From: Bacteroidales bacterium
Lineage (GTDB): Bacteria > Bacteroidota > Bacteroidia > Bacteroidales > UBA1715
NCBI GenBank assembly: GCA_031286165.1
Contig: JAITUU010000055.1
Coordinates: 404-64,403 of the forward strand
Length of the DNA stretch: 64,000 nt
Direction: 5' to 3'
Position 1 is the first letter of the stretch. The number at the start of each line of letters is the position of its first letter. Under the pieces are notes generated by a model. That model was not told the origin of the DNA. It was given only the letters and a program-made list of their open reading frames with translations, and made no database searches. Below are positions 6,791 through 49,049 of the stretch, piece after piece. A program made the position numbers and the translations under genes.

Positions 6791-7105
6791 TTATTTATAC
6801 CCACTCAAAGTTGCCGCCGGAGCAATTCGGTGTATCCATACCATATCATTGAATACGGTGTATAATATAGTTTCACTTTTATAATTTATTCTGCGTACAA
6901 ATTCTCCATGTTGTAACACAGAGCGCGGTATGGTAATAACGGCAAATGAAAGAGGGTAGAATTGGAGGCGTTCTATTTCTTTTAGTAATCCAACGAGATA
7001 TTTTTCAGCAGTGCGCGGAGCATGATAGGTGTAAAATATTCTATCGAATACTTTTATTAAATCCGTTCTCGCTTGTTGCGAATATTCAATTTTATACTGC
7101 TTCAT
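6791..7105 (-). CDS. parE: Type II toxin, ParE/RelE family
   Basis: 104 aa; MKQYKIEYSQQARTDLIKVFDRI...AEKYL..LLKEIERLQFYP is the typical ParE layout. Overlaps a small upstream partner gene. Confidence 0.7.
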   Translation of the reverse strand: MKQYKIEYSQQARTDLIKVFDRIFYTYHAPRTAEKYLVGLLKEIERLQFYPLSFAVITIPRSVLQHGEFVRRINYKSETILYTVFNDMVWIHRIAPAATLSGYK

Positions 7106-7304
7106 TTATGGGAAACTTACAATTTGTACCATAATGGTCGTTAAACTTCTTTTCCAACATTGACCACACTTCGCTATGCGAATATGAAGTTTCGCCCAAA
7201 GAGGAAGGGGGAAGAAAGGTTACAACTCTTTTGTGTTGCAAATCCTGTACTAATTTCACTCCGGCAGGGCGCGAAACGTCTATTTCTACTACTACTGTAC
7301 TCAT
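7092..7304 (-). CDS. Putative cognate antitoxin (70 aa)
   Basis: Small ORF overlapping the ParE-like start by 14 nt. Called from operon position only. Confidence 0.45.
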   Translation of the reverse strand: MSTVVVEIDVSRPAGVKLVQDLQHKRVVTFLPPSSLGETSYSHSEVWSMLEKKFNDHYGTNCKFPINEAV

Positions 7305-7403
7305 GGTTCTGTAATTTAATGGTATCTTTTCGCAAATATACTACATTTTTTATGCAAAAATTTGCAATTTCCTTTTTCTCTAATTTTTTTCATTTTCCTG
7401 TTA

Positions 7404-7628
7404 TTATAAAAGTTCAAACTCATACACCCAAACGTATCATCAATACCCATATTTGTTATACGGAATTTGAAAAACACAAACACCTTTAATAGACTTTGCG
7501 TGAAAGTAACTCATATACGTAGGTGTATGGTCAAAAAATAGCGACTTTTTTACCGGTTCTAATCTTCGGCAGGAAAGTTTGCATTGCTTATTTTCGCAGC
7601 GGCTTATGTCGTTTGATAAATATTCCAT
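7404..7628 (-). pseudogene. Decayed partial tandem duplicate of the adjacent ASCH gene (62-aa ORF + TGA TGA + YVWVYEFELL)
   Basis: The ORF contains RCENKQCK (compare KCENECK in the ASCH gene). After two in-frame TGA codons (7437-7442), the same frame encodes YVWVYEFELL*, which matches the ASCH C-terminus PYVWVYEFRLLKE. Confidence 0.35.
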
Positions 7629-7633
7629 TTTCC

Positions 7634-8026
7634 TTATTCTTTTAAAAGTCTAAACTCATACACCCAAACGTAGGGGTTGCTTTGCCATGTGCCAGAGCCA
7701 TAAATACTATCAAACAATTTTGAGAATGCCTTATATAGCAGTATATATGCAGGGTCTATACCCTCACTTACGCACTCGTGAGGTCTTATATCTTTCACCC
7801 TCTCGCAACGCACATCGGTAATTTCAACGAGGTGTGTTTCGTCTATTTGGCAAATTTCGCCGCCGAAATACTTCGGTTTACACTCGTTCTCACATTTGCG
7901 TATTCGGCAAAATTCCGCATTTCGTTCAAGGCATGGAATAAAATTTCTTATTATCCGCCGTGTCTGTGTTTTTCTACCCTCTATTACCGCTCGTAACAGT
8001 TCGGGTGTGAATTTTAGTTTTTTCAT
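7634..8026 (-). CDS. ASCH-domain-like protein
   Basis: The N-terminal MKKLKFTPELLRAVIEGRKTQTRR pattern is typical of ASCH domains. Start overlaps the upstream stop (ATGA). Confidence 0.6.
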   Translation of the reverse strand: MKKLKFTPELLRAVIEGRKTQTRRIIRNFIPCLERNAEFCRIRKCENECKPKYFGGEICQIDETHLVEITDVRCERVKDIRPHECVSEGIDPAYILLYKAFSKLFDSIYGSGTWQSNPYVWVYEFRLLKE

Positions 8027-8847
8027 AATTTTATATTAAAATATTTTTCTAAAAATTCTTTGCTATCAATCGGAAACATTCCGTAAAACACATATGTAAA
8101 ATCCTCGTAATTAGAGAAAAACAAGTTATGTACAAATAAATCTTCCACGTTCCGAAATTTCTTTTTGCTGACGATTTCCTTTTTTCGTTCCTTGTTCCAC
8201 CATATTCGTCCTCTATCAATCCACAGTTTTACGAATTTGGGGTATTTTTTGAATTGCTCGATTTGATTTTTGTTTGAACACATTGGGCAAATCATGCAGC
8301 CCAAACGCTTTGTAACATCAAATTTGCCATTTTTATAGTACAAATCGTGGCACTTAATACCGCGTTCACGAATAAAATCCGCCACATCTTTGTCCGTCCA
8401 TTCCAAAATAGGAAAATACACTTTCACTTTATCTTTTCCGTAACTGCGGCATATTTCAGGCTCTTTGTAACGCTTTTTTCGTGCCTCGCTTTCGCATTTA
8501 CGAATACCTTGTACGGAATAATTACACACCTTGTATTCTTTCAAAACTTCGCAGCAATAACGCACCCTGCGTGTGGGAAAACCGCGCTCCGAAATGAGTT
8601 GTAACATTGTTTTTTTCGGCATTATTATTTCGCAGCCATTTTCTTTGCAAAACGCTATAGTTCCTTGTGGGTCAATCGTTGTGGCTTTGTAAATTGCGCG
8701 GTATTTAATTCCTGCCATTTTAGCGATTTCCAAAATCACGCTGCTATCTTTGCCGCCCGAAAAACTAATTTCTATCTCTTCGTCGGTGTGTATTGAGCGC
8801 AGTAATTTTATCGCAAAATCTACCTTTTTTTGAAGTTCTTTTGTCAT
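8023..8847 (-). CDS. Phosphoadenosine-phosphosulfate reductase-family (PP-loop ATPase) protein
   Basis: PP-loop motif SFSGGKDSSV near the N-terminus. Cys clusters RYCCEVLKE and CMICPMC. Confidence 0.8.
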   Translation of the reverse strand: MTKELQKKVDFAIKLLRSIHTDEEIEISFSGGKDSSVILEIAKMAGIKYRAIYKATTIDPQGTIAFCKENGCEIIMPKKTMLQLISERGFPTRRVRYCCEVLKEYKVCNYSVQGIRKCESEARKKRYKEPEICRSYGKDKVKVYFPILEWTDKDVADFIRERGIKCHDLYYKNGKFDVTKRLGCMICPMCSNKNQIEQFKKYPKFVKLWIDRGRIWWNKERKKEIVSKKKFRNVEDLFVHNLFFSNYEDFTYVFYGMFPIDSKEFLEKYFNIKL

Positions 8848-9074
8848 ACTTTTTCTTTCAATTTTTTAATTAAAAAACCAATCGGCGAATGAATTTTTCC
8901 GTTACTTTCCAAAATCGTTTTCATGATTGAAAATACGCGGTGTCCGATAGGGGCGTAGTCGCATAGTTTCAAGATTGTTCTAACATCTTCTTGATTTGCG
9001 TTTAATTTTTTCAACTGCGAAACAAGTAATGAAGTGCTGTACTTTATTGTTCCGTTTTTTTCTAACTCTATCAC
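8844..9074 (-). CDS. Hypothetical protein (76 aa)
   Basis: ORF translationally coupled (ATGA) to the PAPS-reductase-like gene. Confidence 0.5.
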   Translation of the reverse strand: MIELEKNGTIKYSTSLLVSQLKKLNANQEDVRTILKLCDYAPIGHRVFSIMKTILESNGKIHSPIGFLIKKLKEKV

Positions 9075-9379
9075 GCTTAGCGGAATAGCAACCTTAAATC
9101 CGAAAAAATCATATTTATTTGGTAGGGATTTTGGTATTTTTTTTATTTTTCTTGTGTTTTTTACGTTTTTTCTTGACTTTTCATATTTTTTATTGTATAT
9201 TTCTGAAAACTAAAATTTAATGCTATTATTACCACACTATTAACTATATTATTTGTTGTTTTGGGTTGGATTTTATATATTTTGTTCGATTTGTGGATTA
9301 CTACTCCTACGAAAAATTACAAACCCAACCTTTCAGGCGGTATTGCACCAAAATCAAAACCGATATTTATTTGTTAATC

Positions 9380-9529
9380 TCAGCAATACCGACTTCTATC
9401 TCTCTTGCTTATTTCTCTGTATTCGTTTTCATCGCGTGTGCTATCGTGGTATCCTTTAATGTAGCCTGCTAAAAACACGCCTACGAGTGTTGCTATCACT
9501 ATAAATATTTCTGCTATTGTTGATATCAT
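9380..9529 (-). CDS. Small single-pass membrane protein (49 aa)
   Basis: ATG at 9529 overlaps the upstream stop. MISTIAEIFIVIATLVGVFLAGYI is followed by a charged tail. Confidence 0.4.
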   Translation of the reverse strand: MISTIAEIFIVIATLVGVFLAGYIKGYHDSTRDENEYREISKRDRSRYC

Positions 9530-9744
9530 TCTTCCGACCCCCCAAATTCTTCGTTTAGTTGTTTTTCCACCCAAAGCAAATATGCCTCTTTGTCGGCTTT
9601 TATGCTATCGGTGTCGTAGGTTGTTGTTGCAATCATTGTTTCGGGGTCAAAGTCAAATTTGCGGTGTTTTTTTGCAATTGATATACCCTCCTCAATTCCC
9701 ATTTTAAGGAGTTTTAGTACTGTTTCTTTTTGTTCTTGTGTCAT
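9526..9744 (-). CDS. Hypothetical protein (72 aa)
   Basis: Clean acidic ORF coupled to the downstream small membrane protein. Confidence 0.5.
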   Translation of the reverse strand: MTQEQKETVLKLLKMGIEEGISIAKKHRKFDFDPETMIATTTYDTDSIKADKEAYLLWVEKQLNEEFGGSEE

Positions 9745-9783
9745 AGCGTTTATGTTTTAAGTTATTCAATTCCTATGTGTAAA

Positions 9784-10302
9784 TTATTCGTTATTTCGGC
9801 GGTGTAGAGCGTTGAAATTTGCTCTTTCAAGCGCGTTGTAAATTGCTCAATCGGTGCATAGTGAATTAATAAGTTGCCCTGCGAGTTCATAGCCACCAAT
9901 TTCGGCGAAGCGTTGCATGATTGTGATAAAATCCGCGCCACCGTTGCTGCTGGCTGCTCATTTAACGTTTTCCCAAATAAAAACCGTTGGTCGGGAGTGA
10001 GCAATAGCGGTAAGTGCGTATTCGATAAGACTACTTCGTTCGCCAGCCAAGCCGTGTCGCTTGCCGGCAATGCTGAAATCTTGGCAAGGCGAGCCGAAAG
10101 TGATAATGTCAGGTCTTTTAATTCCGCTTTCGAGAATATGCTCAACTGAGCCGATGTGTTCTGCTGTTTCATAATTGTATGTGTAATTTGCGATTGCGTG
10201 TTTGTCAATTTCTGAAAAATAGACATGCGAAAACTTAAAACCCGCCGCGCACAATCCTTTGTGAAAACCGCCGTAGCCGCTGAATAAATCGAGTAAAATC
10301 AT
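9784..10302 (-). pseudogene. Decayed DNA (cytosine-5) methyltransferase (N-terminal third only, two in-frame TGA codons)
   Basis: Motif I DLFSGYGGF, motif IV GSPCQDFS and motif VI IWENVK, then a TGA (9958-9960) where ENVKG is expected. The same frame continues with ...FAEIGGYELAGQLINS, a second TGA (9847-9849) and a TAA. The TRD and motifs IX/X are absent. Confidence 0.75.
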
Positions 10303-10502
10303 AAAATATGTGCATTAAATAGTGTGCGTAACTCGGTTGCTAATACACAATAGGGAGAGATTGTGGTTGCAAATACCAAATATACTCTATTGCTATCTAC
10401 GCGAATATCTAATAAATTGAAGACCTCCTCTTTTTCTAAATATCTCAAAATAGGTATTATTTGCTTAGAATGTTTTGCAATGCTGTTATAACGTTCTTTC
10501 AT
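10299..10502 (-). CDS. Hypothetical protein (67 aa)
   Basis: ORF coupled (ATGA) to the methyltransferase remnant. Confidence 0.45.
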   Translation of the reverse strand: MKERYNSIAKHSKQIIPILRYLEKEEVFNLLDIRVDSNRVYLVFATTISPYCVLATELRTLFNAHIL

Positions 10503-10542
10503 AATTATTGGGTTTTAGTTATTAATTACTGCATAAAAAAAA

Positions 10543-10583
10543 CGGTACATTTCAATATGTCAATGAAATCGGTGGGTGGGGTG
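10543..10583. repeat. Boundary repeat family, copy A
   Basis: CGGTACATTTCAATATGTCAATGAAATCGGTGGGTGGGGTG, 41 nt upstream (in gene orientation) of the 67-aa gene start. Confidence 0.7.
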
Positions 10584-10613
10584 CGTTCTATTTCACGCCG
10601 TCATTAGCGGATT

Positions 10614-11416
10614 TTATGGTACAAATGCCGTTGTTTTTTCCGTTTTCACTATATAGGTTCGTTGCGATTTTCCGGTTTCCCAACGCGAGGATTTTTCCAA
10701 TTCGTACTGTTTGTTTTTGCAAAATGCAAGGAGTGCTTTGTTGAACCGCTTTTTGCTCCAATCTTTTGTATTCACGCCGGCATCGCCTATAAATTCGTTA
10801 TACACGGTTATTATTGACACTTCTTGGTTTATGCGCGTATTTTCGGGTGTATTTTCAAAATATTGTTCTGCCCATTCTGCAAAGTGGTCGCCCATTTCGC
10901 TTTCGTTTATGCGCTCAAAGAATTTTTTCATGGGCGGGTTTATTTTTCCGTTGTGCTCCACCACTGCTAAATAGTAGTGCAGACAATCAAGTAAAAAATT
11001 AACGTCTTCGTTTTTCCATTCGTCTGTATATTTGGGATTTTCTATAATATCGTAGCCAAAATCATCGCACACTTTGCGGCTTTCGCGGTAGTTGTTCAGG
11101 TCGGTTTTTTCGTGATACCAATCCGAAAAAATGACAAACTGAAAACGCCTCGCCGTAGAACTATCAAAATTCAGCGGCGTAAAATTGGACGTAAAAACCA
11201 TTTTGGGCGATACGGTATATTCTATGTTTTGTTCATGCTGGTGCATTTTTCGACTACTCATATCGCCGGTAATTTGCGAGTAAAAATGGTTGAATTCAAA
11301 GTATTTATTGCAGTCGTCAATCACAATGAGCGAAGTATTTTCGTCTATATTGGAAAACAAAAATTTGTCTTTCACAAGTTCTTTGTCGCGCCCGCCTTTG
11401 GTGAGTATATGTTTCA
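10614..11416 (-). pseudogene. 3' part of the primase/SF3-helicase gene, severed by the prophage insertion
   Basis: Begins directly after the junction with ...HILTKGGRDKEL..., then Walker B SLIVIDDC and KMVFTSNF (SF3 motif C-like). It has no start or Walker A of its own; those lie at 43421-43470. Confidence 0.8.
11412..11416. repeat. Target-site duplication, left copy (TTTCA)
   Basis: TTTCA at 11412-11416 is identical to 43416-43420. The bases on either side of each copy differ, so the duplication is exactly 5 bp, the length Mu-type transposition generates. Confidence 0.75.
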
Positions 11417-11538
11417 ATTTCTATGGGCTTCACAACCAAACACGAATTGAAAAAAAACGAAATACAATGTGTAATTACCAATAAATAAATAACTTACAAG
11501 CAAAAATAAGCATTACGAAAAGCAATACCAAATACGAA
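11417..11538. repeat. Prophage left end with putative transposase-binding repeats
   Basis: AACCAAACACGAA at 11434-11446 and the variant TACCAAATACGAA at 11526-11538 are the reverse complement of the right-end motif TTCGTGTTTGGTT. One more copy lies in the opposite orientation at 12001-12013. Confidence 0.6.
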
Positions 11539-11785
11539 AAAGCGTAATTTACTGTAATTTTATCGTAATTTTTTTGAGGTATTTTGCCCGCAAAAGTAAT
11601 GTGAGCGTAATTTTGGCATAATTGAGTGCAAGAAAAGCCAAAGAAGCCCATAAAATAAGGCAATCCTGCCAAGCGACCATAGTTATACAGCCTCCTAAAA
11701 AGAGGCTTTTTTTGTGCCTTTTTGTTAGCGAAAAGCCACCACAAGCAAAATAACAAAACCACTAAAAAAATGCCTTTTTTTGCTA

Positions 11786-11821
11786 AAGGTTGTAATAAAG
11801 GTTGTAACGAAGGTTGTAACT
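11786..11821. repeat. Three tandem 12-bp repeats AAGGTTGTAA(Y)(R) in the prophage left arm
   Basis: AAGGTTGTAA starts at 11786, 11798 and 11810 (read directly). The position between the left end and the repressor gene suggests protein-binding sites of operator/enhancer type. Confidence 0.5.
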
Positions 11822-12016
11822 TTTTGTGCATAAAATACCCCCTTAAAACACCCCACTTTGCACTTTTTTTTCGGGTTCGAGGCGTTTTTTTGCGTTTTCG
11901 CTACCCCTATGTGTACAAAATTACCCCCTGTTCAGACCCCCTGTTTGCAGCGTAATATACTGATATTGTGTAAATTATGAAAAATAGCCGTTTTTTTGAT
12001 TTCGTGTTTGGTTTTT

Positions 12017-12040
12017 GGCTATTTGAGGGGCTATTTGAGG
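12017..12040. repeat. Perfect tandem 12-bp repeat GGCTATTTGAGG x2
   Basis: Read directly at 12017-12028 and 12029-12040, immediately after a TTCGTGTTTGGTT copy (12001-12013). Confidence 0.5.
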
Positions 12041-12101
12041 AGGTAGAAGCTTCTTTTTTGCACTAATTATGTAGCCATATACTGCTTGCTCATCCGTAGA
12101 A

Positions 12102-12560
12102 TTATTCGCCCTGTGTTTTCTTTTTCGGTTGCAGTGTCGGTGTGGAAGTGATTGTTGCCGTTTTTTTGTACAACAACTCGTTTTCTGCCTGCAAACGCCC
12201 GATTTCTCGGTTCAATGCCTTTATTTCATTGTCTTTTTCTCGGAGTTGTTCTTTGAGTAGTGCGGTAGTAGTATCTTGTTCTTGTGCTGCAGGTTGTGCG
12301 CACATCGGAGAGGTGCCACCTTGTATATCGCTATTTTTAAGCATTTCGCCCTTGCCGGTTAGTAGCCATTCGGGATTTATTTCGAGATTTCTCACGATGC
12401 TTTCAAGAATGTCATATTTTGGCATAACACCTTTTTTAATATAACCCCGAACATTAGCCTCATTTGACTGTATTAATGTAGCAAACACAGTGTTTTTACC
12501 GTTGCCAAATTTATCTACAAGAAGTTCAATGCGCTCGTGAATAGTCCCGTTTTTTTGCAT
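12102..12560 (-). CDS. Phage repressor (HTH, c/CI-like) with a coiled-coil C-terminus
   Basis: ATG at 12560 is preferred. FATLIQSNEANVRGYIKKGVMPKYDILESIVRNLEINPEWLLTGKGEM is a CI-type HTH signature. Divergent from the early operon. Confidence 0.6.
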   Translation of the reverse strand: MQKNGTIHERIELLVDKFGNGKNTVFATLIQSNEANVRGYIKKGVMPKYDILESIVRNLEINPEWLLTGKGEMLKNSDIQGGTSPMCAQPAAQEQDTTTALLKEQLREKDNEIKALNREIGRLQAENELLYKKTATITSTPTLQPKKKTQGE

Positions 12561-12678
12561 AAAATCAATTTTTATCGTAAGAAAACTCGAAAATAATTTG
12601 CTTAATCGAAATAAATTACGATATTTGCACTGTGTTAAAAAATTAAACACGCCGTAAAGATAACAAAAAATTAAAGCA

Positions 12679-12879
12679 ATGGAAAAATTAATTTACGCCG
12701 ATAAAAAATTACGGGAGCAAGTACGCAAAGCCTTTGCGTGTACCGATGCCACAATTGGCAATTCACTTCTATTCAAACACAATAGTCAAAATAATATACG
12801 CATCCGCACCTACGCCGTGCGTAATGGTGCCTCTTTCTTACGCAAAACAGACTACACTACCGAAGACCTCATTAATTAG
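12679..12879 (+). CDS. Small early protein, Ner/Cro-like by position
   Basis: 66-aa ORF, first gene of the early operon and divergent from the repressor. Confidence 0.4.
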   Translation: MEKLIYADKKLREQVRKAFACTDATIGNSLLFKHNSQNNIRIRTYAVRNGASFLRKTDYTTEDLIN

Positions 12880-12931
12880 ATATGAGATGTGAGATTGAAA
12901 GTAATTATGTAAAAATAAAACACCTCAAAAT

Positions 12932-15070
12932 ATGCAAGATTTCAACGGACAAATATGTGTAACAGGTGCGGAAGCAAAAGCAGCCATTGGCGAACATACC
13001 TATTGCTACCTATTGCGCAGCAACAAAATAGCCAATGCCGCAGGGTATGGTTGTAACGGAAAATCTGCTCTCTACCCGGTGGACGATTTTCCGCTCAAAT
13101 ACAAAGCAATGCTCTATGACTACTACCCCGAACTTTCGGACGAACAAAAGCGCAGGGAAATGATTAGTGAACAAAATTACCTCATAAGCAACATTATGCC
13201 CGACCCAAAGGCGCGAGCATTTTTTACCACCTACGAAAAACCCAACGGTGCAGAACTCAGCCCCGAAGAAAAAAGCAAATACGAAAATTCGGCAAAAATT
13301 CTCAACGCTCTGCGTGTGATGTACGAACGCTCATACTCCATGCACTCTCGCAGCGGCAAAGCGCATAAATTTCGCATAGGCGATTTTTGGCGCGGCGTGG
13401 AACGGCACAAAGACATTGTTTCCGCGCAATTTCCCAACTGCCTGCCCTGGCATTGGAAAAACTTACAATCCCTTGCCGGCGAGTATGCCGGCAATAATTA
13501 CGCTGCCCTGCTCAACGGCAGAATTGGCAACCAAAACCGCACGAAAAAACAGCGTGATTTGCTCACAAAAATAGTACTCAGTATCTACGCCGACCTTGAA
13601 AAACCTTTTAAATCGGACGTAACACGCATTTACAACGAATTTGTACTCGGCGTGCGTGAACTGTATATAAAAGCAACCGGCGAGGCGTTCAACCGCGCCG
13701 ATTTTTACCGCAACGGCGAACCCGAAACCATAAGCGATGCGCTTGTGTTCAATATCATTGAAAATCCACTCAACCGCAAAATTGTTGATACAATCCGTAA
13801 CGATTTTCACTACAATCAGCAACATCACAATGCCGCCATGCAGCGTATTTCTCCCGAATTTTCGCTCTCGAAAATTTCGGCAGACGACCGCGACCTTGTG
13901 CGCCGCTGCTGGGTACCGGGCAAAGACGGCAAGAGCAAAGTGATGGCTACCGTACACGCTTACTACATTTACGATGTGGCAAGCGGAGCCATAATAGGCG
14001 CGGCACACAGCCTCAAAAAAGATACCAACCTTGTCATGGAGTGCTATCGCAATTTATGGAACAATCTGCGCACGTGGGGGCTTGGCACTCCGCTTGAAGT
14101 GGAAGTGGAAAACCACCTTATGAAAGGTGGCACAATGGAGCAACGCCTGCACAACACCTTTACACACGTAAGCTATTGCGCCCCAATGAACTCGCAGGAA
14201 AAACGAGCCGAACATTTCAATAAAGCCAAAAAATACTACGGCGAATATGCTGAATTTAAAGTGGGTATGGCAAAAGGACGGCACCACGCACAGCACGAGG
14301 CGTATTTGGGTACTCGCAAAAAAGTATTCGACGAACACAACGATACCTACGAGGAGCAATTACCCGCGTGGGATTACAATTCGGTGGTAGCCGAAGATTT
14401 GGCACACATAGAATTGTACAACAAAGGCAAACATACTGCCAAAGACAAAAAAACAAAAGAACTCAAATATGGCGGCATGACCCGAATACAAGTGTTGCAA
14501 ATGCGCCAAAACAGCAAATGCGGCGCACTCAATTGGCGTTTGATATGCAAAGAATGGGGCGTGGAACGCGAAACAAGCCTTAAACGCGGCGCATCGTTCA
14601 CGGTGGATTACCGCGAATGGTGGTTGAGCGATGTTTCACTCATTCAGCGTTTCAAAGCGCACAATACCACCGCCACCGCATATTTCATACCCGATGCCGA
14701 AGGAAGAGTAAACGAAATATTCGTTTATCAAGACAATACATTTATTGACAGTCCGCGACACATTGGCAGTTTCCAAGAGGCTATTGCAGAACAAACAGAT
14801 GCGGACTTGCACATAATGCACACACAGTTAGGCTTTAAAAACGCGCAAAAAAGCCTTGCCTCACAAACGGCTGACGAATATTTACTCGGCAAAATCGGCA
14901 GCATAAAAACCGAACAGATAGACAGTGCATTTGCGCAAGTAACCACAAGCGAAACAATCCGCTATCTGCCGCCCGAAGACGAACTACTCGAAACACCCGA
15001 TTTCGTAGAATCGGATTACACACAGTACAGCCCCGAAGAATGGGCAGCACTATCGTTACAAGCAATATAA
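12932..15070 (+). CDS. DDE transposase (MuA-like)
   Basis: 712 aa, second early gene, directly upstream of a MuB-like ATPase. Candidate catalytic residues include ISADDRDL and KKDTN...(about 30 aa)...EVEVENH, a D..D(35)E-like spacing. Confidence 0.8.
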   Translation: MQDFNGQICVTGAEAKAAIGEHTYCYLLRSNKIANAAGYGCNGKSALYPVDDFPLKYKAMLYDYYPELSDEQKRREMISEQNYLISNIMPDPKARAFFTTYEKPNGAELSPEEKSKYENSAKILNALRVMYERSYSMHSRSGKAHKFRIGDFWRGVERHKDIVSAQFPNCLPWHWKNLQSLAGEYAGNNYAALLNGRIGNQNRTKKQRDLLTKIVLSIYADLEKPFKSDVTRIYNEFVLGVRELYIKATGEAFNRADFYRNGEPETISDALVFNIIENPLNRKIVDTIRNDFHYNQQHHNAAMQRISPEFSLSKISADDRDLVRRCWVPGKDGKSKVMATVHAYYIYDVASGAIIGAAHSLKKDTNLVMECYRNLWNNLRTWGLGTPLEVEVENHLMKGGTMEQRLHNTFTHVSYCAPMNSQEKRAEHFNKAKKYYGEYAEFKVGMAKGRHHAQHEAYLGTRKKVFDEHNDTYEEQLPAWDYNSVVAEDLAHIELYNKGKHTAKDKKTKELKYGGMTRIQVLQMRQNSKCGALNWRLICKEWGVERETSLKRGASFTVDYREWWLSDVSLIQRFKAHNTTATAYFIPDAEGRVNEIFVYQDNTFIDSPRHIGSFQEAIAEQTDADLHIMHTQLGFKNAQKSLASQTADEYLLGKIGSIKTEQIDSAFAQVTTSETIRYLPPEDELLETPDFVESDYTQYSPEEWAALSLQAI

Positions 15071-19578: not shown

Positions 19579-19676
19579 ACACAAGACACAAGACACAAGA
19601 TACGAGATACAAGACACGAGATACAAGACGTGAGATTTGAAAACTGATAACTAACAACTAATCACTAATAACTAAA
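19579..19676. repeat. Heptad-periodic spacer (14 x 7 nt) beginning at the stop codon
   Basis: acacaag acacaag acacaag atacgag atacaag acacgag atacaag acgtgag atttgaa aactgat aactaac aactaat cactaat aactaaa. Confidence 0.85.
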
Positions 19677-19803
19677 AAATATACGGAGTTCATTTTTTAT
19701 GTAAGCATCGGTACAATCAAAATGGTGCCAAATAGTTTTTTTAAAATTTTTACGTTGCGGCGGTTTGTATATTTTCCGCCGTTTTTTTATAGCACACAAA
19801 AAA

Positions 19804-19835
19804 AGCCCCGAACAGTCAGCGTTCGGGGCTTTTTA
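19804..19835 (+). terminator. Rho-independent terminator after the early/morphogenesis block
   Basis: AGCCCCGAAC-cagtcagc-GTTCGGGGCT followed by TTTT. Confidence 0.7.
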
Positions 19836-19846
19836 ATGCCGTTTAA

Positions 19847-19873
19847 TTGCCGTTTAAATTATTGTTACATTTG
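19847..19873 (+). promoter_or_regulatory. Promoter-like motif for the accessory gene at 19896 (TTG-N16-TACATTTG)
   Basis: TTG at 19847-19849 and TAcaTTTG at 19866-19873. The spacing is slightly short. Confidence 0.4.
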
Positions 19874-19895
19874 CGAAATTTTAAAACTGTAAACT

Positions 19896-20186
19896 ATGAT
19901 TACACCTGAATTAAAAGACAGTGTGTTGAACGCTATTTGTAACTGCGGATTACAATATGAAGTGATGTATCGCATACCAAAAAAAGAGTTCTTTTCCGCT
20001 ACCGAATTATCTATTGATAATAACGATTTTGTTTCCATAATGAGCCAATTTCAACGAAAAGGCTTTATAGAACACTATGCCAATACTTATTCTGTAATAC
20101 CAATACTATTAAAAATAGAGGCTACCGATTTTCTACAACGAGGTGGATTTGTTGCTCAAGAAAAGTGCTTACCGACAATATTATAA
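19896..20186 (+). CDS. Hypothetical accessory protein in an AT-rich island
   Basis: 96-aa ORF preceded by a TTG...TACATTTG promoter-like motif. Its composition is visibly more AT-rich than the phage core. Confidence 0.45.
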   Translation: MITPELKDSVLNAICNCGLQYEVMYRIPKKEFFSATELSIDNNDFVSIMSQFQRKGFIEHYANTYSVIPILLKIEATDFLQRGGFVAQEKCLPTIL

Positions 20187-20206
20187 AACTCGAAAAAGAA
20201 ATCAAT

Positions 20207-20500
20207 TTACTTGCCAAACAACTTTCTCCAAAATACTTGTAAAAGGCTAATTTTATTGTTTCTCTCGGTTCCGCTATCATTAGTGCTGTAGGATTGATGA
20301 AACAACCCTAATTCAATCGCCTTTAAAGGGTCGTTACATTGTTGGTAAACTCTCCATTCTGCCCTATCTCTATATACCTCTTCATTTTCGCACAACACAA
20401 TTCTTTCAACAAATTGTGTTGCGGCAAATGGCGTATTTGTTTTTTTAGTTTCGTAGTTAAATATAATTTTGTATGTAACCGTTTGTTTGTTTTTTTTCAT
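20207..20500 (-). CDS. Hypothetical accessory protein in an AT-rich island
   Basis: 97-aa ORF on the same strand as, and downstream of, the MuF-domain gene. Confidence 0.45.
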   Translation of the reverse strand: MKKNKQTVTYKIIFNYETKKTNTPFAATQFVERIVLCENEEVYRDRAEWRVYQQCNDPLKAIELGLFHQSYSTNDSGTERNNKISLLQVFWRKLFGK

Positions 20501-20521
20501 TGTTGTATTGATTTTTGAATT

Positions 20522-20863
20522 TTATTGTTGTATACAATCTAATACACCGACCAAATCGCAATCACAGAGCGAAAGACGGTTTTGAAACCAATTCTTTATG
20601 GTAAAATCATTTTCAAAATCAAGTTTTGAACCTTCTTTAACCACTTCGTTGAAAAGATTAAACTTCTTTTTACCAAGAATAACCGAAAGAGGTGCGAAAC
20701 CTTCGTAAAACACTCCGTCATATACACAATCTCTTTTCGGATATTGAGCAGGACAAAGTTCATCAGGTTCTAACATTCCGCTTTTGAGACGTATTTCTAT
20801 TATACACATTCGGAAAAGAAGGGTGTTAAAGTTTCGATGTTTCGTTGGAAATAATATTGCCAT
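20522..20863 (-). CDS. Hypothetical accessory protein; candidate immunity partner of the MuF C-terminal domain
   Basis: 113-aa ORF, the first same-strand gene downstream of the MuF gene. The immunity role is inferred from the polymorphic-toxin gene-order rule only. Confidence 0.3.
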   Translation of the reverse strand: MAILFPTKHRNFNTLLFRMCIIEIRLKSGMLEPDELCPAQYPKRDCVYDGVFYEGFAPLSVILGKKKFNLFNEVVKEGSKLDFENDFTIKNWFQNRLSLCDCDLVGVLDCIQQ

Positions 20864-20928
20864 ATTTGTACATTTTTGAATTTTATTGTTGTATCTTTGT
20901 ATTATTAATCAATCTAATTGTTACCGCT

Positions 20929-21144
20929 ATGTCTGACTTGAATTTCTATAAAGAAAAGAAAAAAAACTCTATTTTTTGGGTAGATAATGCACTATACGCG
21001 AAAGGAGAACATCTATTTTCTTTTGATAAAAAGAAGATATACAACCTATTTGCCGATTACCCACACAATATGACTGCCGAAGAAATTGCCATTTTTGACA
21101 AAGAGGAACCGTATTGGTGCGATTTTTTCAAAGACAGAAAATAG
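20929..21144 (+). CDS. Hypothetical accessory protein (71 aa)
   Basis: ATG at 20929 (MSDLNFYKEKKK...). Convergent with the MuF gene. Confidence 0.4.
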   Translation: MSDLNFYKEKKKNSIFWVDNALYAKGEHLFSFDKKKIYNLFADYPHNMTAEEIAIFDKEEPYWCDFFKDRK

Positions 21145-21153
21145 GTGTTTATT

Positions 21154-22512
21154 TTATTTTATTTTGCCTTTTTCACCTTTTAACTGTCTGTCTTTGTTTG
21201 TATTTATATACCCAAGTAGTTCGCGAAAAGAATCATCTTTCTTGAATAATTCCAAATCTATAAGCACTTCTTCAACTTCATATTTTTCTCCCAAAAATGT
21301 GTGTGATTTTTTCGCTTTAAATCGCTCTTTCAATGCCGCTTCGGTAAGAGGTTTAAACCCATTGTCTTTGGTGTCTTGTAGTTCTAAGTATTCATAACCA
21401 TTATCTATTTTTCGTATTATTGCAGCATGTCGCCCTGATGTAAAATAATACTCTTTCCCTTTTTCTGTTTGTTTTATCAAGTTTACTGCATTAGTAAAGT
21501 CGTTTCCATTTTTGCTTATGATACATCCCGCTTTTTTGGCAATGTCTTTTATGTTGTAGTGTCTTGAAAATATTAAACAACTATTTCCACCTCTGAAATC
21601 CAAAACATCATACCCACATTTGTTTCCAGCGTATGCAAAAGCCAGAGACGAACACGAACCTTTTGTTAAATCTCCACCGCCAATTCGCTCGATTATTTCT
21701 GTTTCAGTTGGCTGTTTTGAGTGGTTCTTAACTTCGTTATATTCTATCTTGTCAAATTTTATATTTTCGATAATCTCATCAAATTTTCGTATTTCTACGG
21801 GCTTCGCTGCCTCTATTTGCTCCCTCAAAAACTGTTCTACTACTTCACGTCCTTTCTCTCCCGTTCGCACAATGTAACCGGCTTTGTCGGTAAAAATTTC
21901 GCCGGTAATACCCGGATTGCCTTCTAATCCTGCCGGTGGGGTAAATTCCGGCACATCGGTATTGTCGGTTACGGCATCGGCGCATTCCTGCATACCGCAC
22001 TTGCACCGCCAGAGTGAGCCGGGTGTATTGCTAACCCAAAAGGGGTCGTTTTTTGCCCACACGCGGTGGTAGAATCTTCGATGTTCTTCGCGCTGAGTTA
22101 CGCTGGTGCTTGGCAGCCATTTGAGGTTGGGAAAAAGGCGCAGGTTATCTGCTTGCATATACACACTCCACTGCTTGGCGGTGCGAGCGCGAGCGGTGGC
22201 GGTGGCGCACTCGGTGTGCTGCCATGCGTGGAACTGTGCAAGGGTCGCCGCTGCCGTGTCGGGGCTGTGGCGCACTATTTGCGTGGCTTGGTAGGCTTTG
22301 TAGGCGGCAAAGCGGTTGGTGTTTGCCTTCAAGTGTTCGCCGCCGCCCTCGTGATACACCATTTCCACTGCTCGGCGCAAACTTGTTGCATAGTGCTTGT
22401 AGAGTTCGCTGTGTATGGGTTTTTCGCTTGCGAGTATTTCCTCTATTGTTTTTTTCGCATTATAGGCTGCCGTCAGTCGCCCAAGCCACTCCCCATCGTT
22501 TCTTACTCCCAT
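21154..22512 (-). CDS. MuF-like head morphogenesis protein with an extra C-terminal Cys/His domain
   Basis: The N-terminal half has the MuF/SPP1 gp7 pattern ...REEHRRFYHRVWAKNDPFWVSNTPGSLWRCKCGM. The C-terminal ~250 aa is AT-rich in coding sequence and contains GGGDLTKGSCSSLAFAY and GRHAAIIRKIDNGYEYLELQD. Confidence 0.75.
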   Translation of the reverse strand: MGVRNDGEWLGRLTAAYNAKKTIEEILASEKPIHSELYKHYATSLRRAVEMVYHEGGGEHLKANTNRFAAYKAYQATQIVRHSPDTAAATLAQFHAWQHTECATATARARTAKQWSVYMQADNLRLFPNLKWLPSTSVTQREEHRRFYHRVWAKNDPFWVSNTPGSLWRCKCGMQECADAVTDNTDVPEFTPPAGLEGNPGITGEIFTDKAGYIVRTGEKGREVVEQFLREQIEAAKPVEIRKFDEIIENIKFDKIEYNEVKNHSKQPTETEIIERIGGGDLTKGSCSSLAFAYAGNKCGYDVLDFRGGNSCLIFSRHYNIKDIAKKAGCIISKNGNDFTNAVNLIKQTEKGKEYYFTSGRHAAIIRKIDNGYEYLELQDTKDNGFKPLTEAALKERFKAKKSHTFLGEKYEVEEVLIDLELFKKDDSFRELLGYINTNKDRQLKGEKGKIK

Positions 22513-22547: not shown

Positions 22548-23789
22548 TTAGTCGAAAAAACTAAGGTCGCCCGGTTCTGCGGCAAAAGCCCCTCTTGCTG
22601 CCTCTCCCCACAAGGGAGTGGGGAAGGAATTTTGCAATGCAGCAGTAACACCGGCACCCATCGGAGCCGGTGCTGCAAATTTATCTGCCACCGGCACACC
22701 GAATTTTTCCTCAATCCATTTGTTATCCACCTCTTTGTATGGCAGCAATTCTTTCACTATTTCCCACAGTTTGGCAGTATTTTCGCTCGCAGAAAAGCGA
22801 AAAATCTCGGTTCCGGCAGGGAGCCAGCCCATGGCGCGAAAGGCAGGCAGCACTACGGAATTGATGTACATTTCCACCATGCGTTTATCGCTTTCTATTA
22901 AGCGGTTGAGCATTTCTATGGAGAGTTCCTCTTTTGAGCGGTTGCCGTTTTGTGTGTCCTGCCCTATAATTGCGCCGCTTACTAAAAGCGATGTTTCGTT
23001 GTTGCACAAGCGAATGAGGTTGGCATACACATCACCGTTGGTATTCACGCCCTGCAAAAAACTAAATTCTTCGGTGCTGTCTATCACCGCCCATGTAGCC
23101 GCGCCCATTTCGCGCATCATTTGTTCGGCACGGTCGAGCATGGCTTTGTCTCGGGTGTTGGTTTTCAAGTAGCGCGGCGGTATGCCGTAAATTTCGCAGA
23201 GTTCGCTCCAACACGATTGCGCAAATTTTTTGAACAATATGTGGTTCACCGATTTATTGAGCAGCCCTAAGTGTTCGGCGTTAAATTCTATCAGCGAAGT
23301 GCCGTATTCGGCTACGCTGCGGTAGGCAATGCCGGTGGATTGACTTACGTTGGGGTACAATATGCCGAGTTCCGACACCACATGGCGGCGGTCTATAAGC
23401 GTTGCTCGATTGATGCCGTTTTGGTCGGTAAAAATTTCCACCAGCGAGCAGCCGTACCATTCGGAATTGAGAATATGCCCAATAATATCGCGCAAGCACG
23501 GTATGGTATTGAGCGTGGCAGTGGCGTGGTCGTTTACCTTGCCATCGGCTGTTACCAATTCAAAGCCGGCACTGATTGTTTGCTCATTGCGGTTGTTGAG
23601 TTGCGAACTCAGCAGTGCATCGTTTGAAATATCGGTATAAATTTCCTGCAGGAGGTACTGTTTGGGATTTGTGGTGGCAGTAGCCATACGCACGGCGCGT
23701 TTCCAATCGGCTATATCGCGGCGCACCTGCGGAATTTGCCGTTGTACTAACTGTGTGCTTATTTGGGGTGTTTGTTTTTTCTTTGTCAT
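22548..23789 (-). CDS. Portal protein (Mu gp29-like)
   Basis: 413 aa, located between the TerL and MuF genes, the canonical portal position. Confidence 0.65.
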   Translation of the reverse strand: MTKKKQTPQISTQLVQRQIPQVRRDIADWKRAVRMATATTNPKQYLLQEIYTDISNDALLSSQLNNRNEQTISAGFELVTADGKVNDHATATLNTIPCLRDIIGHILNSEWYGCSLVEIFTDQNGINRATLIDRRHVVSELGILYPNVSQSTGIAYRSVAEYGTSLIEFNAEHLGLLNKSVNHILFKKFAQSCWSELCEIYGIPPRYLKTNTRDKAMLDRAEQMMREMGAATWAVIDSTEEFSFLQGVNTNGDVYANLIRLCNNETSLLVSGAIIGQDTQNGNRSKEELSIEMLNRLIESDKRMVEMYINSVVLPAFRAMGWLPAGTEIFRFSASENTAKLWEIVKELLPYKEVDNKWIEEKFGVPVADKFAAPAPMGAGVTAALQNSFPTPLWGEAARGAFAAEPGDLSFFD

Positions 23790-46645: not shown

Positions 46646-47185
46646 TTAGATTGTTTTCAAGTCAAAATACATTGCTCGTGTTTCTTCGTCTTTATCGGTT
46701 TCGGTCATAAACTTAAAACCATTTTTTTCGTAAAAATCGGTTACTTCGGCATAAGCATCTACGGTTATGAAACGGCAACCGGCTGTTTGCAGTGTTTCGG
46801 CGTACAGTTTTTTAACATAGAATACAATAATTCTGCCGAAACCTACCTGCGCCGATTTCTTATTGACAGCCAATCGTCCTATTTTTACGGCAGGGTGGCT
46901 TTTCTTACGTTTATTGTTTGCCACACTTCTACTCAATCTGTTCCATTCCGTTTTACTTACATCAATACGGGCTATACGGTCGTTTGATAATGAAAAATAG
47001 GCAATCGTTTCAGTGTTTGTTTGTAACACATAGGTTACGGCAAACAAATCATTCAAATATTTCTTTGCATCATTTTTCAAAAATTTATTCAAATCGTCTT
47101 TTCCGCAATCGAAAGAATGAATAGGAGTATCTTGTGTCAATCGAGCAATGTCCCATTCCAATTGTTCTACTTTTCCTAAACTCAT
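46646..47185 (-). CDS. GNAT-family acetyltransferase, probable TA toxin
   Basis: The acetyl-CoA motif region IGRLAVNKKSAQVGFGRIIVFYV and ...FYEKNGFKF. Start overlaps the stop of a 53-aa upstream ORF (ATGA). Confidence 0.65.
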   Translation of the reverse strand: MSLGKVEQLEWDIARLTQDTPIHSFDCGKDDLNKFLKNDAKKYLNDLFAVTYVLQTNTETIAYFSLSNDRIARIDVSKTEWNRLSRSVANNKRKKSHPAVKIGRLAVNKKSAQVGFGRIIVFYVKKLYAETLQTAGCRFITVDAYAEVTDFYEKNGFKFMTETDKDEETRAMYFDLKTI

Positions 47186-47343
47186 AATACAGGGAATGTT
47201 GCTCGTGATTTAATTAATTCATACGCAGCATCCATTTCTCTGCGTTCTTTTGCCGATATTTTTTTTGGATTTGCAATTTCTCTTTCAAATCTTCGAGCCT
47301 CTTCACCATACAGTGTCGGTGTTTCTTTTATAGGTCGTGCCAT
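47182..47343 (-). CDS. Putative antitoxin of the GNAT toxin (53 aa)
   Basis: Manually translated as MARPIKETPTLYGEEARRFEREIANPKKISAKERREMDAAYELIKSRATFPVL. Translationally coupled to the GNAT gene. Confidence 0.5.
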   Translation of the reverse strand: MARPIKETPTLYGEEARRFEREIANPKKISAKERREMDAAYELIKSRATFPVL

Positions 47344-47405
47344 AGTCTTATCCTTTTACGTTTTTTTTGCAAATATAACGCAAAATTTGAAAAATTGTTT
47401 CTTTT

Positions 47406-47447
47406 CGGTACAATTCAATGTGTCAATGAACTCGGTGGGTTGGGTGG
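47406..47447. repeat. Boundary repeat family, copy B
   Basis: CGGTACAATTCAATGTGTCAATGAACTCGGTGGGTTGGGTGG, 63 nt upstream of the GNAT-operon start, with a TATATTTG -7-like box in between. Confidence 0.7.
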
Positions 47448-47709
47448 TGTGTTGCTTCACACACAATAGATAAAAAAAGCATCGTTCAGTTTGTTATTCC
47501 GGCGAAGAAAGAAACTCACTCAACGATGTTTTTGTGTTATACATTTTTTGCAATTCACAATTGATTTTCTTCGCCTGCCAAACGTTCTCTGAATGTTTGG
47601 TTTTGTAAATGTATAATTTTTTCGGAGTAAAATCCAAAAAATTAATACAGTTTTTCCAAAAAAATTCAACACATATTTCTAATACACTAAATATTAATTA
47701 CTTAAATTT

Positions 47710-48942: not shown

Positions 48943-48951
48943 TTCTCTTTT

Positions 48952-49013: not shown

Positions 49014-49049
49014 TTTAGAATAAAATAGTATCTTTGTAAAAACGAAGGT

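What the first reader, a model, noticed from the sequence alone, without database searches (positions are those of the whole stretch)
21154..21915. MuF head protein carries an extra AT-rich C-terminal domain with a Cys/His signature (possible capsid-delivered effector)
The first ~200 residues match the MuF/SPP1-gp7 morphogenesis pattern (…REEHRRFYHRVWAKNDPFW…WRCKCG). The remaining ~250 residues are encoded by visibly AT-richer DNA. They contain GGGDLTKGSCSSLAFAY and, ~80 residues later, GRHAAIIRKIDNGYEYLELQD. This is a Cys…His…(Asp/Gln) arrangement compatible with a papain-like or transglutaminase-like fold. MuF-family proteins are known carriers of polymorphic C-terminal toxin or effector domains that are packaged in the head and injected with the DNA. 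The compositional break argues for domain acquisition.
Basis: partly seen in the sequence, partly recalled or inferred. Interest (0 to 1): 0.65.

Follow-up and report, generated by a model that had tools for sequence, protein, structure and literature searches.

The report
Phage head protein carrying toxin cassette
A prophage head protein ends in an acquired, uncatalogued papain-like enzyme domain that always travels with the small protein DUF7675, which makes the pair a probable toxin-immunity cassette of a known general kind.

Summary
ORF 21154-22512 (-) encodes 452 aa: a MuF head-protein N-terminus plus a ~205-aa C-terminal module. GC drops from 0.55 to 0.33 at codon 239, where N-terminal homology ends. 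The module models confidently and matches only papain-fold (clan CA) enzymes, weakly. C287, H362 and E377-x-Q379 are invariant. No Pfam, NCBIfam or PDB sequence match exists.

In ~200 loci it is always followed directly by DUF7675 (window 20929-21144, +, convergent, 9 nt away). DUF7675 occasionally occurs alone or beside a frameshifted module; the reverse was never seen. The same cassette also sits on WXG100-like carriers next to EccC/EssC-type ATPases (type VII secretion). The 120 closest MuF N-terminal relatives lack the module and mostly carry LPD3.

These are hallmarks of a polymorphic toxin-immunity cassette. The signature parallels Tox-PL1 (NC-H-DxQ), known on MuF and T7SS carriers since 2012, so this is a new family of a known kind. 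Toxicity, target and capsid delivery are untested.

The parts
21154..22512 (-). Whole ORF (452 aa plus stop): MuF-type head protein fused to a papain-like C-terminal module
   Evidence: called as a gene in an independent assembly, L002
21832..22512 (-). N-terminal MuF head-morphogenesis domain (residues 1 to ~227), the predicted capsid-targeting carrier
   Evidence: PHROG hits over residues 32-219. 218 relatives at up to 62% identity, many hitting PF04233. Homology to them ends at median residue 227
21796..21798 (-). Codon 239: GC change point and recombination junction between carrier and cassette
   Evidence: GC 0.547 before and 0.326 after. Agrees with the homology boundaries
21157..21768 (-). 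Papain-fold module (residues 249-452), an uncatalogued Tox-PL1-like family (phrog_7104)
   Evidence: phrog_7104 at 1.9e-51. AF2 pLDDT 87, pTM 0.81. The credible Foldseek hits are clan-CA enzymes. 1050 clusters, always at the C-terminus
21652..21654 (-). Cys287, predicted nucleophile at the N-terminus of a helix
   Evidence: 56/57 in A1 and 138/138 in loci (partly circular because the motif was a retrieval pattern). DSSP
21427..21429 (-). His362, predicted general base at the start of a beta-strand
   Evidence: 57/57 and 138/138. Not part of the retrieval patterns
21376..21384 (-). Glu377-Leu-Gln379, an invariant ExQ that parallels the DxQ of the Tox-PL1 signature
   Evidence: Tox-PL1 signature NC-H-DxQ from PMC3482391
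21157..21219 (-). Conserved flexible C-terminal tail, LLGYINT..Q.KG..G..K, ending the protein
   Evidence: N437 and T438 invariant; Q443, K445, G446, G449 near-invariant. Low pLDDT. Also present in the T7SS-type copies
20929..21144 (+). DUF7675 (71 aa), the conserved partner and predicted cytoplasmic immunity/inhibitor protein; convergent, its stop lies 9 nt from the MuF stop
   Evidence: PF24723 at 6e-33. Adjacent to the module in every testable locus. 969 relatives. AF2 pLDDT 89
20892..20899 (+). TATCTTTG, a match to the Bacteroides -7 promoter consensus TAnnTTTG about 30 nt upstream of the DUF7675 ATG (weak evidence)
   Evidence: about 0.17 matches expected by chance in the stretch searched (my estimate)
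19600..21797 (.). AT-rich island (GC about 0.33) holding the cassette and three lineage-specific small ORFs (20522-20863 -, 20207-20500 -, 19896-20186 +)
   Evidence: The three ORFs have no relatives in ~200 related loci and no significant family hits
22548..23789 (-). Mu-type portal gene directly upstream, which defines the head-morphogenesis context
   Evidence: PF06074 at 1.9e-59

Best explanation
The gene encodes a MuF-family polymorphic toxin or effector. The N-terminal ~230 residues are the MuF head protein, which by analogy with SPP1 gp7 and the MuF toxins Bxa and Apk2 places the protein inside the capsid next to the portal. The last ~205 residues are a papain-fold thiol enzyme with predicted catalytic Cys287, His362 and Glu377 plus an invariant Gln379. 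It may be a peptidase, deamidase or transferase and would act on a cytoplasmic bacterial target. The 71-aa protein DUF7675, encoded convergently 9 nt downstream, is its cognate neutralising (immunity) protein and would protect the cell that makes the toxin. The toxin-immunity cassette entered this MuF gene by recombination at about codon 239, where it took the place usually held by a C-terminal LPD3 domain in this MuF lineage. Shown here: domain boundaries, fold class, invariant residues, obligate linkage to DUF7675, re-use on other carriers, and the chimeric origin. Inferred: catalysis, toxicity, inhibition by DUF7675, packaging and injection.
For: (1) Fold. The AF2 model has pLDDT 87 and pTM 0.81, with Cys at a helix N-terminus and His at a strand start. 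The credible PDB matches are all clan-CA enzymes: phytochelatin synthase, C39 ComA/PCAT1, UfSP, Josephin, MINDY, M48 DUB and RavD, with probabilities up to 0.96. (2) Invariant C287, H362, E377 and Q379, among others, in 57 database relatives and 138 unique locus copies. The pattern SC-H-ExQ parallels the Tox-PL1 signature NC-H-DxQ. (3) Obligate partner. DUF7675 lies directly 3' of the module in 79/80 viral loci and 77/80 genome loci by phmmer. With HMMs it is found in every locus that has sequence downstream; the only two without it are at contig ends. (4) Asymmetry. DUF7675 occurs alone in L033, L035 and L036, and beside a frameshifted module in L044-L047, which come from four different metagenomes. 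The module never occurs without DUF7675. (5) Shared between delivery systems. Seven of 80 species genomes have a WXG100-like N-terminus, the module and DUF7675 directly after a 1460-aa ATPase whose best PDB matches are EccC, EccC5 and YukB, with small WXG100 genes upstream. (6) Polymorphism. None of the 120 closest N-terminal relatives has the module; many end in LPD3 instead. (7) The junction coincides with a sharp GC and GC3 break. (8) The module is always at the extreme C-terminus of MuF-type carriers (PF04233, PF06152, PF25310). (9) The phage has its own ClpP-type prohead protease, so the module is not needed for head maturation. (10) The pair persists outside intact head modules (L003, L004, L006). 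(11) Precedent: Bacteroidales MuF toxins with adjacent immunity ORFs (PMC11699363) and MuF-Tox-PL1 fusions (PMC3482391).
Against: There is no experimental evidence of toxicity, catalysis, binding or packaging. Fold matches are weak (Foldseek E about 0.01, TMq 0.26-0.35, 6-16% identity), and I could not inspect coordinates to confirm triad geometry. The residue six positions before the Cys is Asp281, not the usual Gln/Asn oxyanion residue. DUF7675 is more conserved than the enzyme (58% against 48% mean pairwise identity), which is the opposite of what is usual for immunity proteins, and it has no detectable fold relative. In Bacteroidota the partner gene is convergent, not co-transcribed. Locus retrieval used conserved peptide patterns, so the samples favour typical members, and the invariance of the GSCSS and DFRGG motifs in loci is partly circular.
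Confidence: 0.7

Rival explanations
1. The module is a processing or releasing peptidase, not a toxin. It would cut virion or cargo proteins, or MuF itself, during head assembly or ejection, as Zhang et al. 2012 suggested for MuF-Tox-PL1 fusions. DUF7675 would then be a regulator or substrate.
For: The proposal is in the literature for the closest known family (PMC3482391). The fold neighbours include C39 leader peptidases. One relative, P0442, is a polyvalent MuF-zincin-zincin protein ending in the module.
Against: The same module with DUF7675 occurs as the only catalytic domain at the C-terminus of WXG100-type T7SS substrates, where there is no capsid to process. The 120 closest MuF relatives assemble heads without it. 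The phage has a ClpP-type prohead protease. The pair persists where no head genes remain. A processing enzyme does not explain why DUF7675 survives next to frameshifted modules.
Confidence: 0.1
2. The module is an injected host-takeover or anti-defence enzyme that is not growth-inhibitory, for example an isopeptidase or deconjugase. DUF7675 would be a cofactor, chaperone or packaging adaptor, not an inhibitor.
For: Fold hits include deubiquitinase-type enzymes (UfSP, Josephin, MINDY, M48 USP). DUF7675 is unusually conserved for an immunity protein. The T7SS-type loci also encode ThiF (E1-like) and Prok-JAB proteins. The polyvalent-protein literature argues that MuF-linked enzymes help early invasion (PMC5512222).
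Against: A cofactor should not be kept when the enzyme is lost or frameshifted (L033, L035, L036, L044-L047). In L035 the orphan DUF7675 sits beside an HD_4 hydrolase of the type used as immunity against MuF alarmone-synthetase toxins. Use as T7SS cargo is typical of antibacterial toxins. DUF7675 has no ubiquitin-like fold or C-terminal Gly-Gly.
Confidence: 0.12
3. One reading: the immunity protein is the product of 20522-20863 or 20207-20500, which lie on the same strand downstream of the MuF gene.
For: They are small ORFs downstream on the same strand inside the same AT-rich island, the classic position for immunity genes.
Against: Neither has a single relative in ~200 loci that carry the module, and neither hits any family library. 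DUF7675 lies between them and the toxin gene and is present in every testable locus.
Confidence: 0.04
4. The extension is a non-catalytic structural part of this MuF subfamily.
For: It always sits on head proteins in phage contexts, and no activity has been shown.
Against: About 16 polar residues are invariant across phyla, including a Cys/His/Glu arrangement on a papain-like scaffold. It also occurs on non-phage T7SS carriers. The nearest MuF relatives lack it.
Confidence: 0.03

Closest known systems
MuF polymorphic toxins (Jamet et al. 2017, PMC5576092; Bxa and its relatives in Bacteroidales, PMC11699363; Apk2)
   Same: An N-terminal MuF head protein encoded next to the portal gene in a temperate phage. 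A variable C-terminal enzymatic domain. A small neutralising gene directly adjacent. C-terminal domains shared with other toxin-delivery families.
   Different: The C-terminal domain here is not an ADP-ribosyltransferase, alarmone synthetase, nuclease or metallopeptidase, and it is not covered by any Pfam model. The partner gene is convergent in Bacteroidota, not co-directional. The partner is more conserved than the toxin.
Tox-PL1 papain-fold toxin (Zhang et al. 2012, PMC3482391; to my knowledge Pfam PF15644 Gln_amidase), with immunity family Imm35
   Same: Papain-like fold. Signature NC-H-DxQ against SC-H-ExQ here. The same carriers (MuF and WXG/T7SS). Placement at the extreme C-terminus as the only catalytic domain.
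   Different: None of 57 members plus 10 divergent members hits PF15644, even at permissive thresholds. The third residue is Glu, not Asp, and Ser, not Asn, precedes the Cys. The partner is DUF7675 (PF24723), not Imm35. Whether it is a distant branch of Tox-PL1 needs a profile-profile test I could not run.
Clan-CA enzymes found by fold search: phytochelatin synthase Alr0975 (2bu3), C39 peptidase domains of ComA/PCAT1 (5xe9, 6v9z), UfSP, Josephin
   Same: The overall alpha+beta papain fold in the model. The Cys-to-His (75 residues) and His-to-acid (15-17 residues) spacings are close to those I recall for C39 peptidases.
   Different: Only 6-16% identity, Foldseek E about 0.01, and no HMM-level match. 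Asp, not Gln, sits at the -6 position. There is no ABC-transporter or leader-peptide context.
Type VII secretion WXG/LXG antibacterial toxins with adjacent immunity genes
   Same: In seven species genomes the same module with DUF7675 is fused to a WXG100-like N-terminus next to an EccC/EssC-like ATPase and WXG100 genes.
   Different: The window copy is on a phage MuF carrier in a Bacteroidales Mu-like prophage, with no T7SS genes in the window region examined.
Cysteine protease plus dedicated cytoplasmic inhibitor pairs (staphopain-staphostatin, SpeB-Spi); from my own knowledge
   Same: A papain-fold enzyme encoded next to a small signal-peptide-less protein that protects the producer's cytoplasm.
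   Different: There is no sequence or fold relationship of DUF7675 to those inhibitors. Those enzymes are secreted by Sec, not delivered by capsid or T7SS.

Membership tests
MuF polymorphic toxin system | N-terminal MuF/SPP1-gp7-type head-morphogenesis domain encoded next to the portal gene | tested here: met
   PHROG MuF-type hits over residues 32-219. Relatives at 45-62% identity hit PF04233; P0150 reaches 30.3 bits against a cutoff of 29.6. A Mu portal gene lies directly upstream. The window protein itself is below Pfam detection.
MuF polymorphic toxin system | Variable C-terminus: close relatives of the N-terminal carrier bear different C-terminal domains | tested here: met
   0 of 120 closest N-terminal relatives carry the module. 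Homology ends at median residue 227, followed by ~130 aa that is often LPD3 (PF18798).
MuF polymorphic toxin system | C-terminal toxin domain shared with other polymorphic-toxin delivery families | tested here: met
   WXG100-like N-terminus plus module plus DUF7675, next to an EccC/EssC-like ATPase, in L192, L197, L200-L203 and L205.
MuF polymorphic toxin system | Cognate immunity gene immediately adjacent to the toxin gene | tested here: inconclusive
   A conserved adjacent small gene (DUF7675) is present in every testable locus, and orphans occur in one direction only. Neutralisation itself was not tested, and no complex prediction was possible with these tools.
MuF polymorphic toxin system | Toxicity of the C-terminal domain, and packaging into and delivery from the capsid | not testable with these tools
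   Needs expression assays and virion proteomics.
Papain-like (clan CA) thiol enzymes | Alpha+beta fold with the nucleophilic Cys at a helix N-terminus and His on a beta-strand | tested here: met
   DSSP of the model: Cys88 of the fragment starts helix 87-99 and His163 starts strand 163-170. The credible Foldseek PDB hits are clan-CA enzymes, with probability up to 0.96 but E about 0.01. Coordinates could not be inspected.
Papain-like (clan CA) thiol enzymes | Invariant Cys and His plus an acidic or amide third residue | tested here: met
   C287 in 56/57 and 138/138; H362, E377 and Q379 in 100%.
Papain-like (clan CA) thiol enzymes | Gln/Asn oxyanion-hole residue about 6 positions before the Cys | tested here: not met
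   Position -6 is an invariant Asp281. This is a departure from the canonical pattern.
Tox-PL1 / Pfam PF15644 (Gln_amidase) | Match to the family profile | tested here: not met
   No hit in 57 members at E<=1 or in 10 divergent members at E<=10.
Tox-PL1 / Pfam PF15644 (Gln_amidase) | NC-H-DxQ signature | tested here: inconclusive
   The family has SC-H-ExQ, which is the same spacing logic with two conservative differences. A profile-profile comparison was not possible.
Peptidase C39 (bacteriocin leader peptidases) | Match to the C39 profile and fusion to, or linkage with, an ABC exporter | tested here: not met
   No Pfam hit and no ABC transporter context. The similarity is at fold level only.
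Ct_MAD (C-terminal MuF-associated domain, Jamet 2017) | C-terminal part of COG2369-type MuF1 proteins of Proteobacterial phages | not tested
   The profile is not available here. The description (Proteobacteria, COG2369 C-terminus) does not fit the taxa or carriers seen for this module.

The most novel reading that the evidence does not exclude
DUF7675 may be more than a plug-type inhibitor. It is a 70-aa protein of unknown fold that is more conserved across phyla than the enzyme it accompanies. One possibility is that it mimics the toxin's universally conserved cellular target. Another is that the pair works as a kin-recognition or superinfection switch. In that model Bacteroidota lysogens express DUF7675 from its own promoter, as the convergent orientation and the -7 motif at 20892 suggest, and so survive toxin injected by sister phage particles while non-lysogens are intoxicated. 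A related, less likely reading is that the enzyme is a deconjugase aimed at ubiquitin-like defence pathways, given the fold hits to UfSP, Josephin and MINDY and the ThiF and JAB genes in the T7SS-type loci.
Probability: 0.15. Interest if true: 0.65.

Novelty: new member of a known kind. Interest (0 to 1): 0.45.

Why it matters
MuF-borne toxins are thought to be carried in phage heads, but only two enzymatic classes (Bxa, Apk2) have been studied. This module is among the commoner MuF cargoes: at least 1050 clusters at 50% identity, 464 viral contigs, and species from Bacteroidota, Bacillota, Fibrobacter, Spirochaetes, Fusobacterium and Actinomycetota. It has no Pfam model and only an 'unknown function' PHROG family. 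The analysis gives a testable function to a Pfam DUF with about 1000 known members (DUF7675 as cognate immunity protein) and defines a new thiol-enzyme toxin family used by both phage capsids and type VII secretion. The pair is compact (205 aa plus 70 aa) and highly conserved, so it is well suited to structural and target-identification work. It should also be annotated in gut-phage genomes.

Tried and rejected
(1) Sequence searches of the module against Pfam, NCBIfam and PDB chains, with single sequences and with a profile, returned nothing meaningful. The aldehyde-dehydrogenase 'LGYINT' hit is a short chance motif.
(2) I considered an ADP-ribosyltransferase reading of the invariant D-F-R-G-G-x-S and E-L-Q motifs (R-S-E-like). 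I rejected it because the confident model matches papain-fold enzymes and no ADP-ribosyltransferases.
(3) Ct_MAD of Jamet 2017 was considered as the identity of the module. It is unlikely: that domain was defined in Proteobacteria from the COG2369 C-terminus.
(4) The polyvalent-protein survey (PMC5512222) has no papain-like entry, and no paper contains 'DUF7675'.
(5) The fold search of DUF7675 gave no match, best E about 7.
(6) Seed-based portal detection in the loci failed because portals are too diverse. I replaced it with a Pfam scan of the upstream neighbours.
(7) The sigma-70 promoter scan of the island was uninformative: 14 sites against 7.7 +/- 2.9 in shuffles, in AT-rich DNA, with the wrong promoter type for Bacteroidota.
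(8) The JBC paper's supplements do not give the sequence of its 'glutamine deaminase' MuF toxin, so no direct comparison was possible.
(9) The third, helical N-terminus in L198 and L193 and the 973-aa upstream ORF in L193 have no PDB sequence match.
(10) No natural fusion of module and DUF7675 appeared among the 120 listed DUF7675 relatives (longest 122 aa) that could have served as a proxy for a complex model.
Full report
**1. The observation**

The ORF 21154..22512 (-) encodes 452 aa and contains both quoted motifs. GC in 200-nt windows falls from 0.52-0.62 to 0.30-0.38 within the gene. A likelihood change point places the break at window 21797, which is codon 239. GC is 0.547 before it and 0.326 after it, and GC3 drops from 0.43-0.77 to 0.20-0.30.

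The low-GC tract does not stop at the end of the gene. It continues to about 19600. An independent assembly (L002) calls the same genes: portal, this ORF, a convergent 71-aa gene, then ORFs of 113, 97 and 96 aa.

The surrounding element is a Mu-like prophage. It has an AAA_22 MuB-like protein, a Mu portal, a ClpP-type prohead protease, DUF2586 and a tape-measure protein. It lies in a probable Bacteroidales genome, as a BT4734-like primase is nearby.

**2. Two parts with different histories**

PHROG profiles split the protein in two. Residues 32-219 match MuF-type families. Residues 247-450 match phrog_7104 (1.9e-51, function unknown) and the C-terminus of a 'head morphogenesis' family.

Searching the N-terminal 215 residues finds 218 relatives at up to 62% identity. 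They are 300-376 aa long, and many hit PF04233 (Mu_F), PF18798 (LPD3) or both. None of the best 120 contains the C-terminal module. Their homology to the window protein ends at median residue 227 and is followed by an unrelated ~130 aa. The protein-level junction and the GC break therefore coincide, so the gene is a chimera.

**3. What the C-terminal module is**

It has more than 631 relatives at 40-60% identity, 1050 clusters at 50% identity in an exhaustive profile search, and 464 viral contigs. In all 150 listed representatives it sits at the extreme C-terminus.

Its carriers are PF04233, PF06152 and PF25310 head proteins. Some contain inteins, and one is a polyvalent MuF-zincin-zincin protein.

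No Pfam, NCBIfam or PDB sequence match exists, even for divergent members.

An AlphaFold2 model built from 57 sequences is confident (pLDDT 87, pTM 0.81). The conserved Cys starts a helix, the conserved His starts a strand, and ExQ follows the next strand. The credible Foldseek matches in the PDB are papain-fold enzymes: phytochelatin synthase, C39 ComA/PCAT1, UfSP, Josephin, MINDY, M48 DUB and RavD. Probabilities reach 0.96, but E-values are about 0.01 and identity is 6-16%.

Invariant residues are D281, T283, G285, S286, C287, S289, D305, R307, S311, Y355, H362, E377, Q379, R397, N437 and T438. Part of this invariance in the loci is circular, because TxGSC.. and DFRGG were the retrieval patterns. 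H362, E377, Q379, Y355, R397, N437 and T438 were not in those patterns.

**4. The conserved partner**

In five contexts found by exact protein look-up, the gene directly 3' of the module is DUF7675 (PF24723). Adjacency in larger samples:

| Sample | Loci with the partner adjacent | Notes |
|---|---|---|
| Module-seeded viral loci | 79/80 | The exception is a contig end |
| Species-representative genomes | 77/80 by phmmer | 56 co-directional/overlapping, 21 convergent |
| DUF7675-seeded viral loci | 36/39 | The module is adjacent |

With HMMs, every module that has sequence downstream has DUF7675.

The exceptions run in one direction only. DUF7675 occurs alone in L033, L035 and L036. It occurs beside a frameshifted module in L044-L047, where four different metagenomes show the same break. 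In L035 the orphan follows an HD_4-type hydrolase (E 1.2e-5, just under threshold) close to the endolysin. That resembles the alarmone-hydrolase immunity genes of MuF-Apk2 toxins (PMC11699363).

DUF7675 has 969 relatives. All are 65-122 aa and 62-78% identical. It has no signal peptide and no metal-binding Cys/His. Its confident model (pLDDT 89) is a three-stranded sheet plus helices and has no PDB fold match.

Over 139 unique pairs the two proteins co-diverge (Mantel r 0.50, 0/999 permutations). Orientation follows phylogeny (135/139 nearest neighbours agree). DUF7675 is the more conserved of the two, at 58% against 48% mean pairwise identity.

**5. The same cassette on another delivery system**

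Among 45 upstream neighbours in genomes, 23 are portals or terminases and six are ~1470-aa FtsK/SpoIIIE proteins.

In L201 the module's host protein (333 aa) begins with a WXG100-like domain, and DUF7675 overlaps its end. Two small WXG100 paralogues lie upstream. The ATPase's best PDB matches are EccC (4nh0, 9e-32), EccC5 and YukB. Seven of 80 species genomes have this type VII secretion arrangement.

The conserved C-terminal tail is present there too. It therefore belongs to the enzyme and is not a capsid signal.

**6. Interpretation**

The following features are the defining traits of polymorphic toxin-immunity cassettes (PMC3482391, PMC5576092):
- C-terminal placement.
- Replacement of alternative C-termini on the same carrier.
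- Re-use on an unrelated secretion carrier.
- An obligate adjacent small cytoplasmic partner.
- Orphan partners, but no orphan enzymes.

A role in head maturation is unlikely. The phage has a ClpP-type protease, and the nearest MuF relatives lack the module. I therefore read the gene as a MuF-delivered thiol-enzyme toxin or effector, with DUF7675 as its immunity protein (confidence about 0.7). The reaction catalysed (peptidase, deamidase or transferase), the target, and delivery are all unknown.

**7. Relation to what is known**

Zhang et al. 2012 described Tox-PL1, a papain-fold toxin with the signature NC-H-DxQ. It is found on WXG/T7SS and MuF carriers and has Imm35 as its immunity family. 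The present family shows SC-H-ExQ and uses the same two carriers. However, it does not hit the Pfam Tox-PL1 model, and its partner is a different family. I regard it as an uncatalogued sister, or a very divergent branch, of Tox-PL1.

The concept is therefore established. The new elements are this specific toxin family and the functional assignment of DUF7675. No paper in the searchable library mentions DUF7675.

**8. Caveats**

- All functional statements are inferences from comparative genomics and a predicted structure.
- The fold matches are weak.
- The partner's high conservation and its convergent orientation in Bacteroidota are unusual for immunity genes and remain unexplained.
- Locus sampling relied on conserved peptide patterns.

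Noticed in passing
window 19600-20863: The AT-rich island extends beyond the toxin-immunity pair. It holds three small ORFs (113 aa and 97 aa on the - strand, 96 aa on the + strand) with no relatives in ~200 related loci and no significant family hits; the 96-aa ORF has only a very weak Abi_2 match (E 0.09). They may be separate accessory cargo.
   Followed up: partly
L035:3517-4216: An orphan DUF7675 with no toxin module sits directly after a 140-aa HD_4-type (RelA/SpoT-family) hydrolase near the endolysin of a prophage. This could be a small island of immunity genes against MuF toxins.
   Followed up: partly
L044-L047 (e.g. L045:2572-4240): Four contigs from different metagenomes share the same frameshift splitting the papain-like module at profile position 72, while the adjacent DUF7675 is intact. 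This is either an inactivated toxin with retained immunity or a programmed frameshift.
   Followed up: no
L201:669-11757: The type VII secretion-like loci that carry the module also encode a ThiF (E1-like) protein, a Prok-JAB protein and a B-box zinc-finger protein between the WXG100 genes and the EccC/EssC-like ATPase, and an M48 peptidase just downstream. An M48 peptidase also lies near the cassette in L003.
   Followed up: no
L198:807-1967 and L193:9413-10621: A third carrier type: a ~185-aa helical N-terminus that is neither MuF nor the WXG100-like domain, fused to a module 74-82% identical to most of the T7SS-type copies (66% to the most divergent, L192).
   Followed up: partly
P0449, P0405 (relatives): Some MuF-papain proteins are interrupted by inteins or a LAGLIDADG domain between the MuF domain and the module.
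   Followed up: no
P0121-P0240: The closest relatives of this MuF N-terminus mostly end in LPD3 (PF18798), a polyvalent-protein domain of unknown function. In L003 an LPD3 protein is encoded separately just upstream of a MuF-papain gene.
   Followed up: partly
window 21157-21219 (residues 432-452): The module ends in a flexible but highly conserved tail, LLGYINT..Q.KG..G..K, and the protein terminates there in all 150 listed representatives. Its role (partner binding, substrate mimicry or autoinhibition) is unknown.
   Followed up: partly
window 7000-13000 and 47000-51000: There are two further AT-rich islands (GC 0.30-0.39 against 0.43-0.50 elsewhere in the window), which may be additional acquired cargo.
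   Followed up: no
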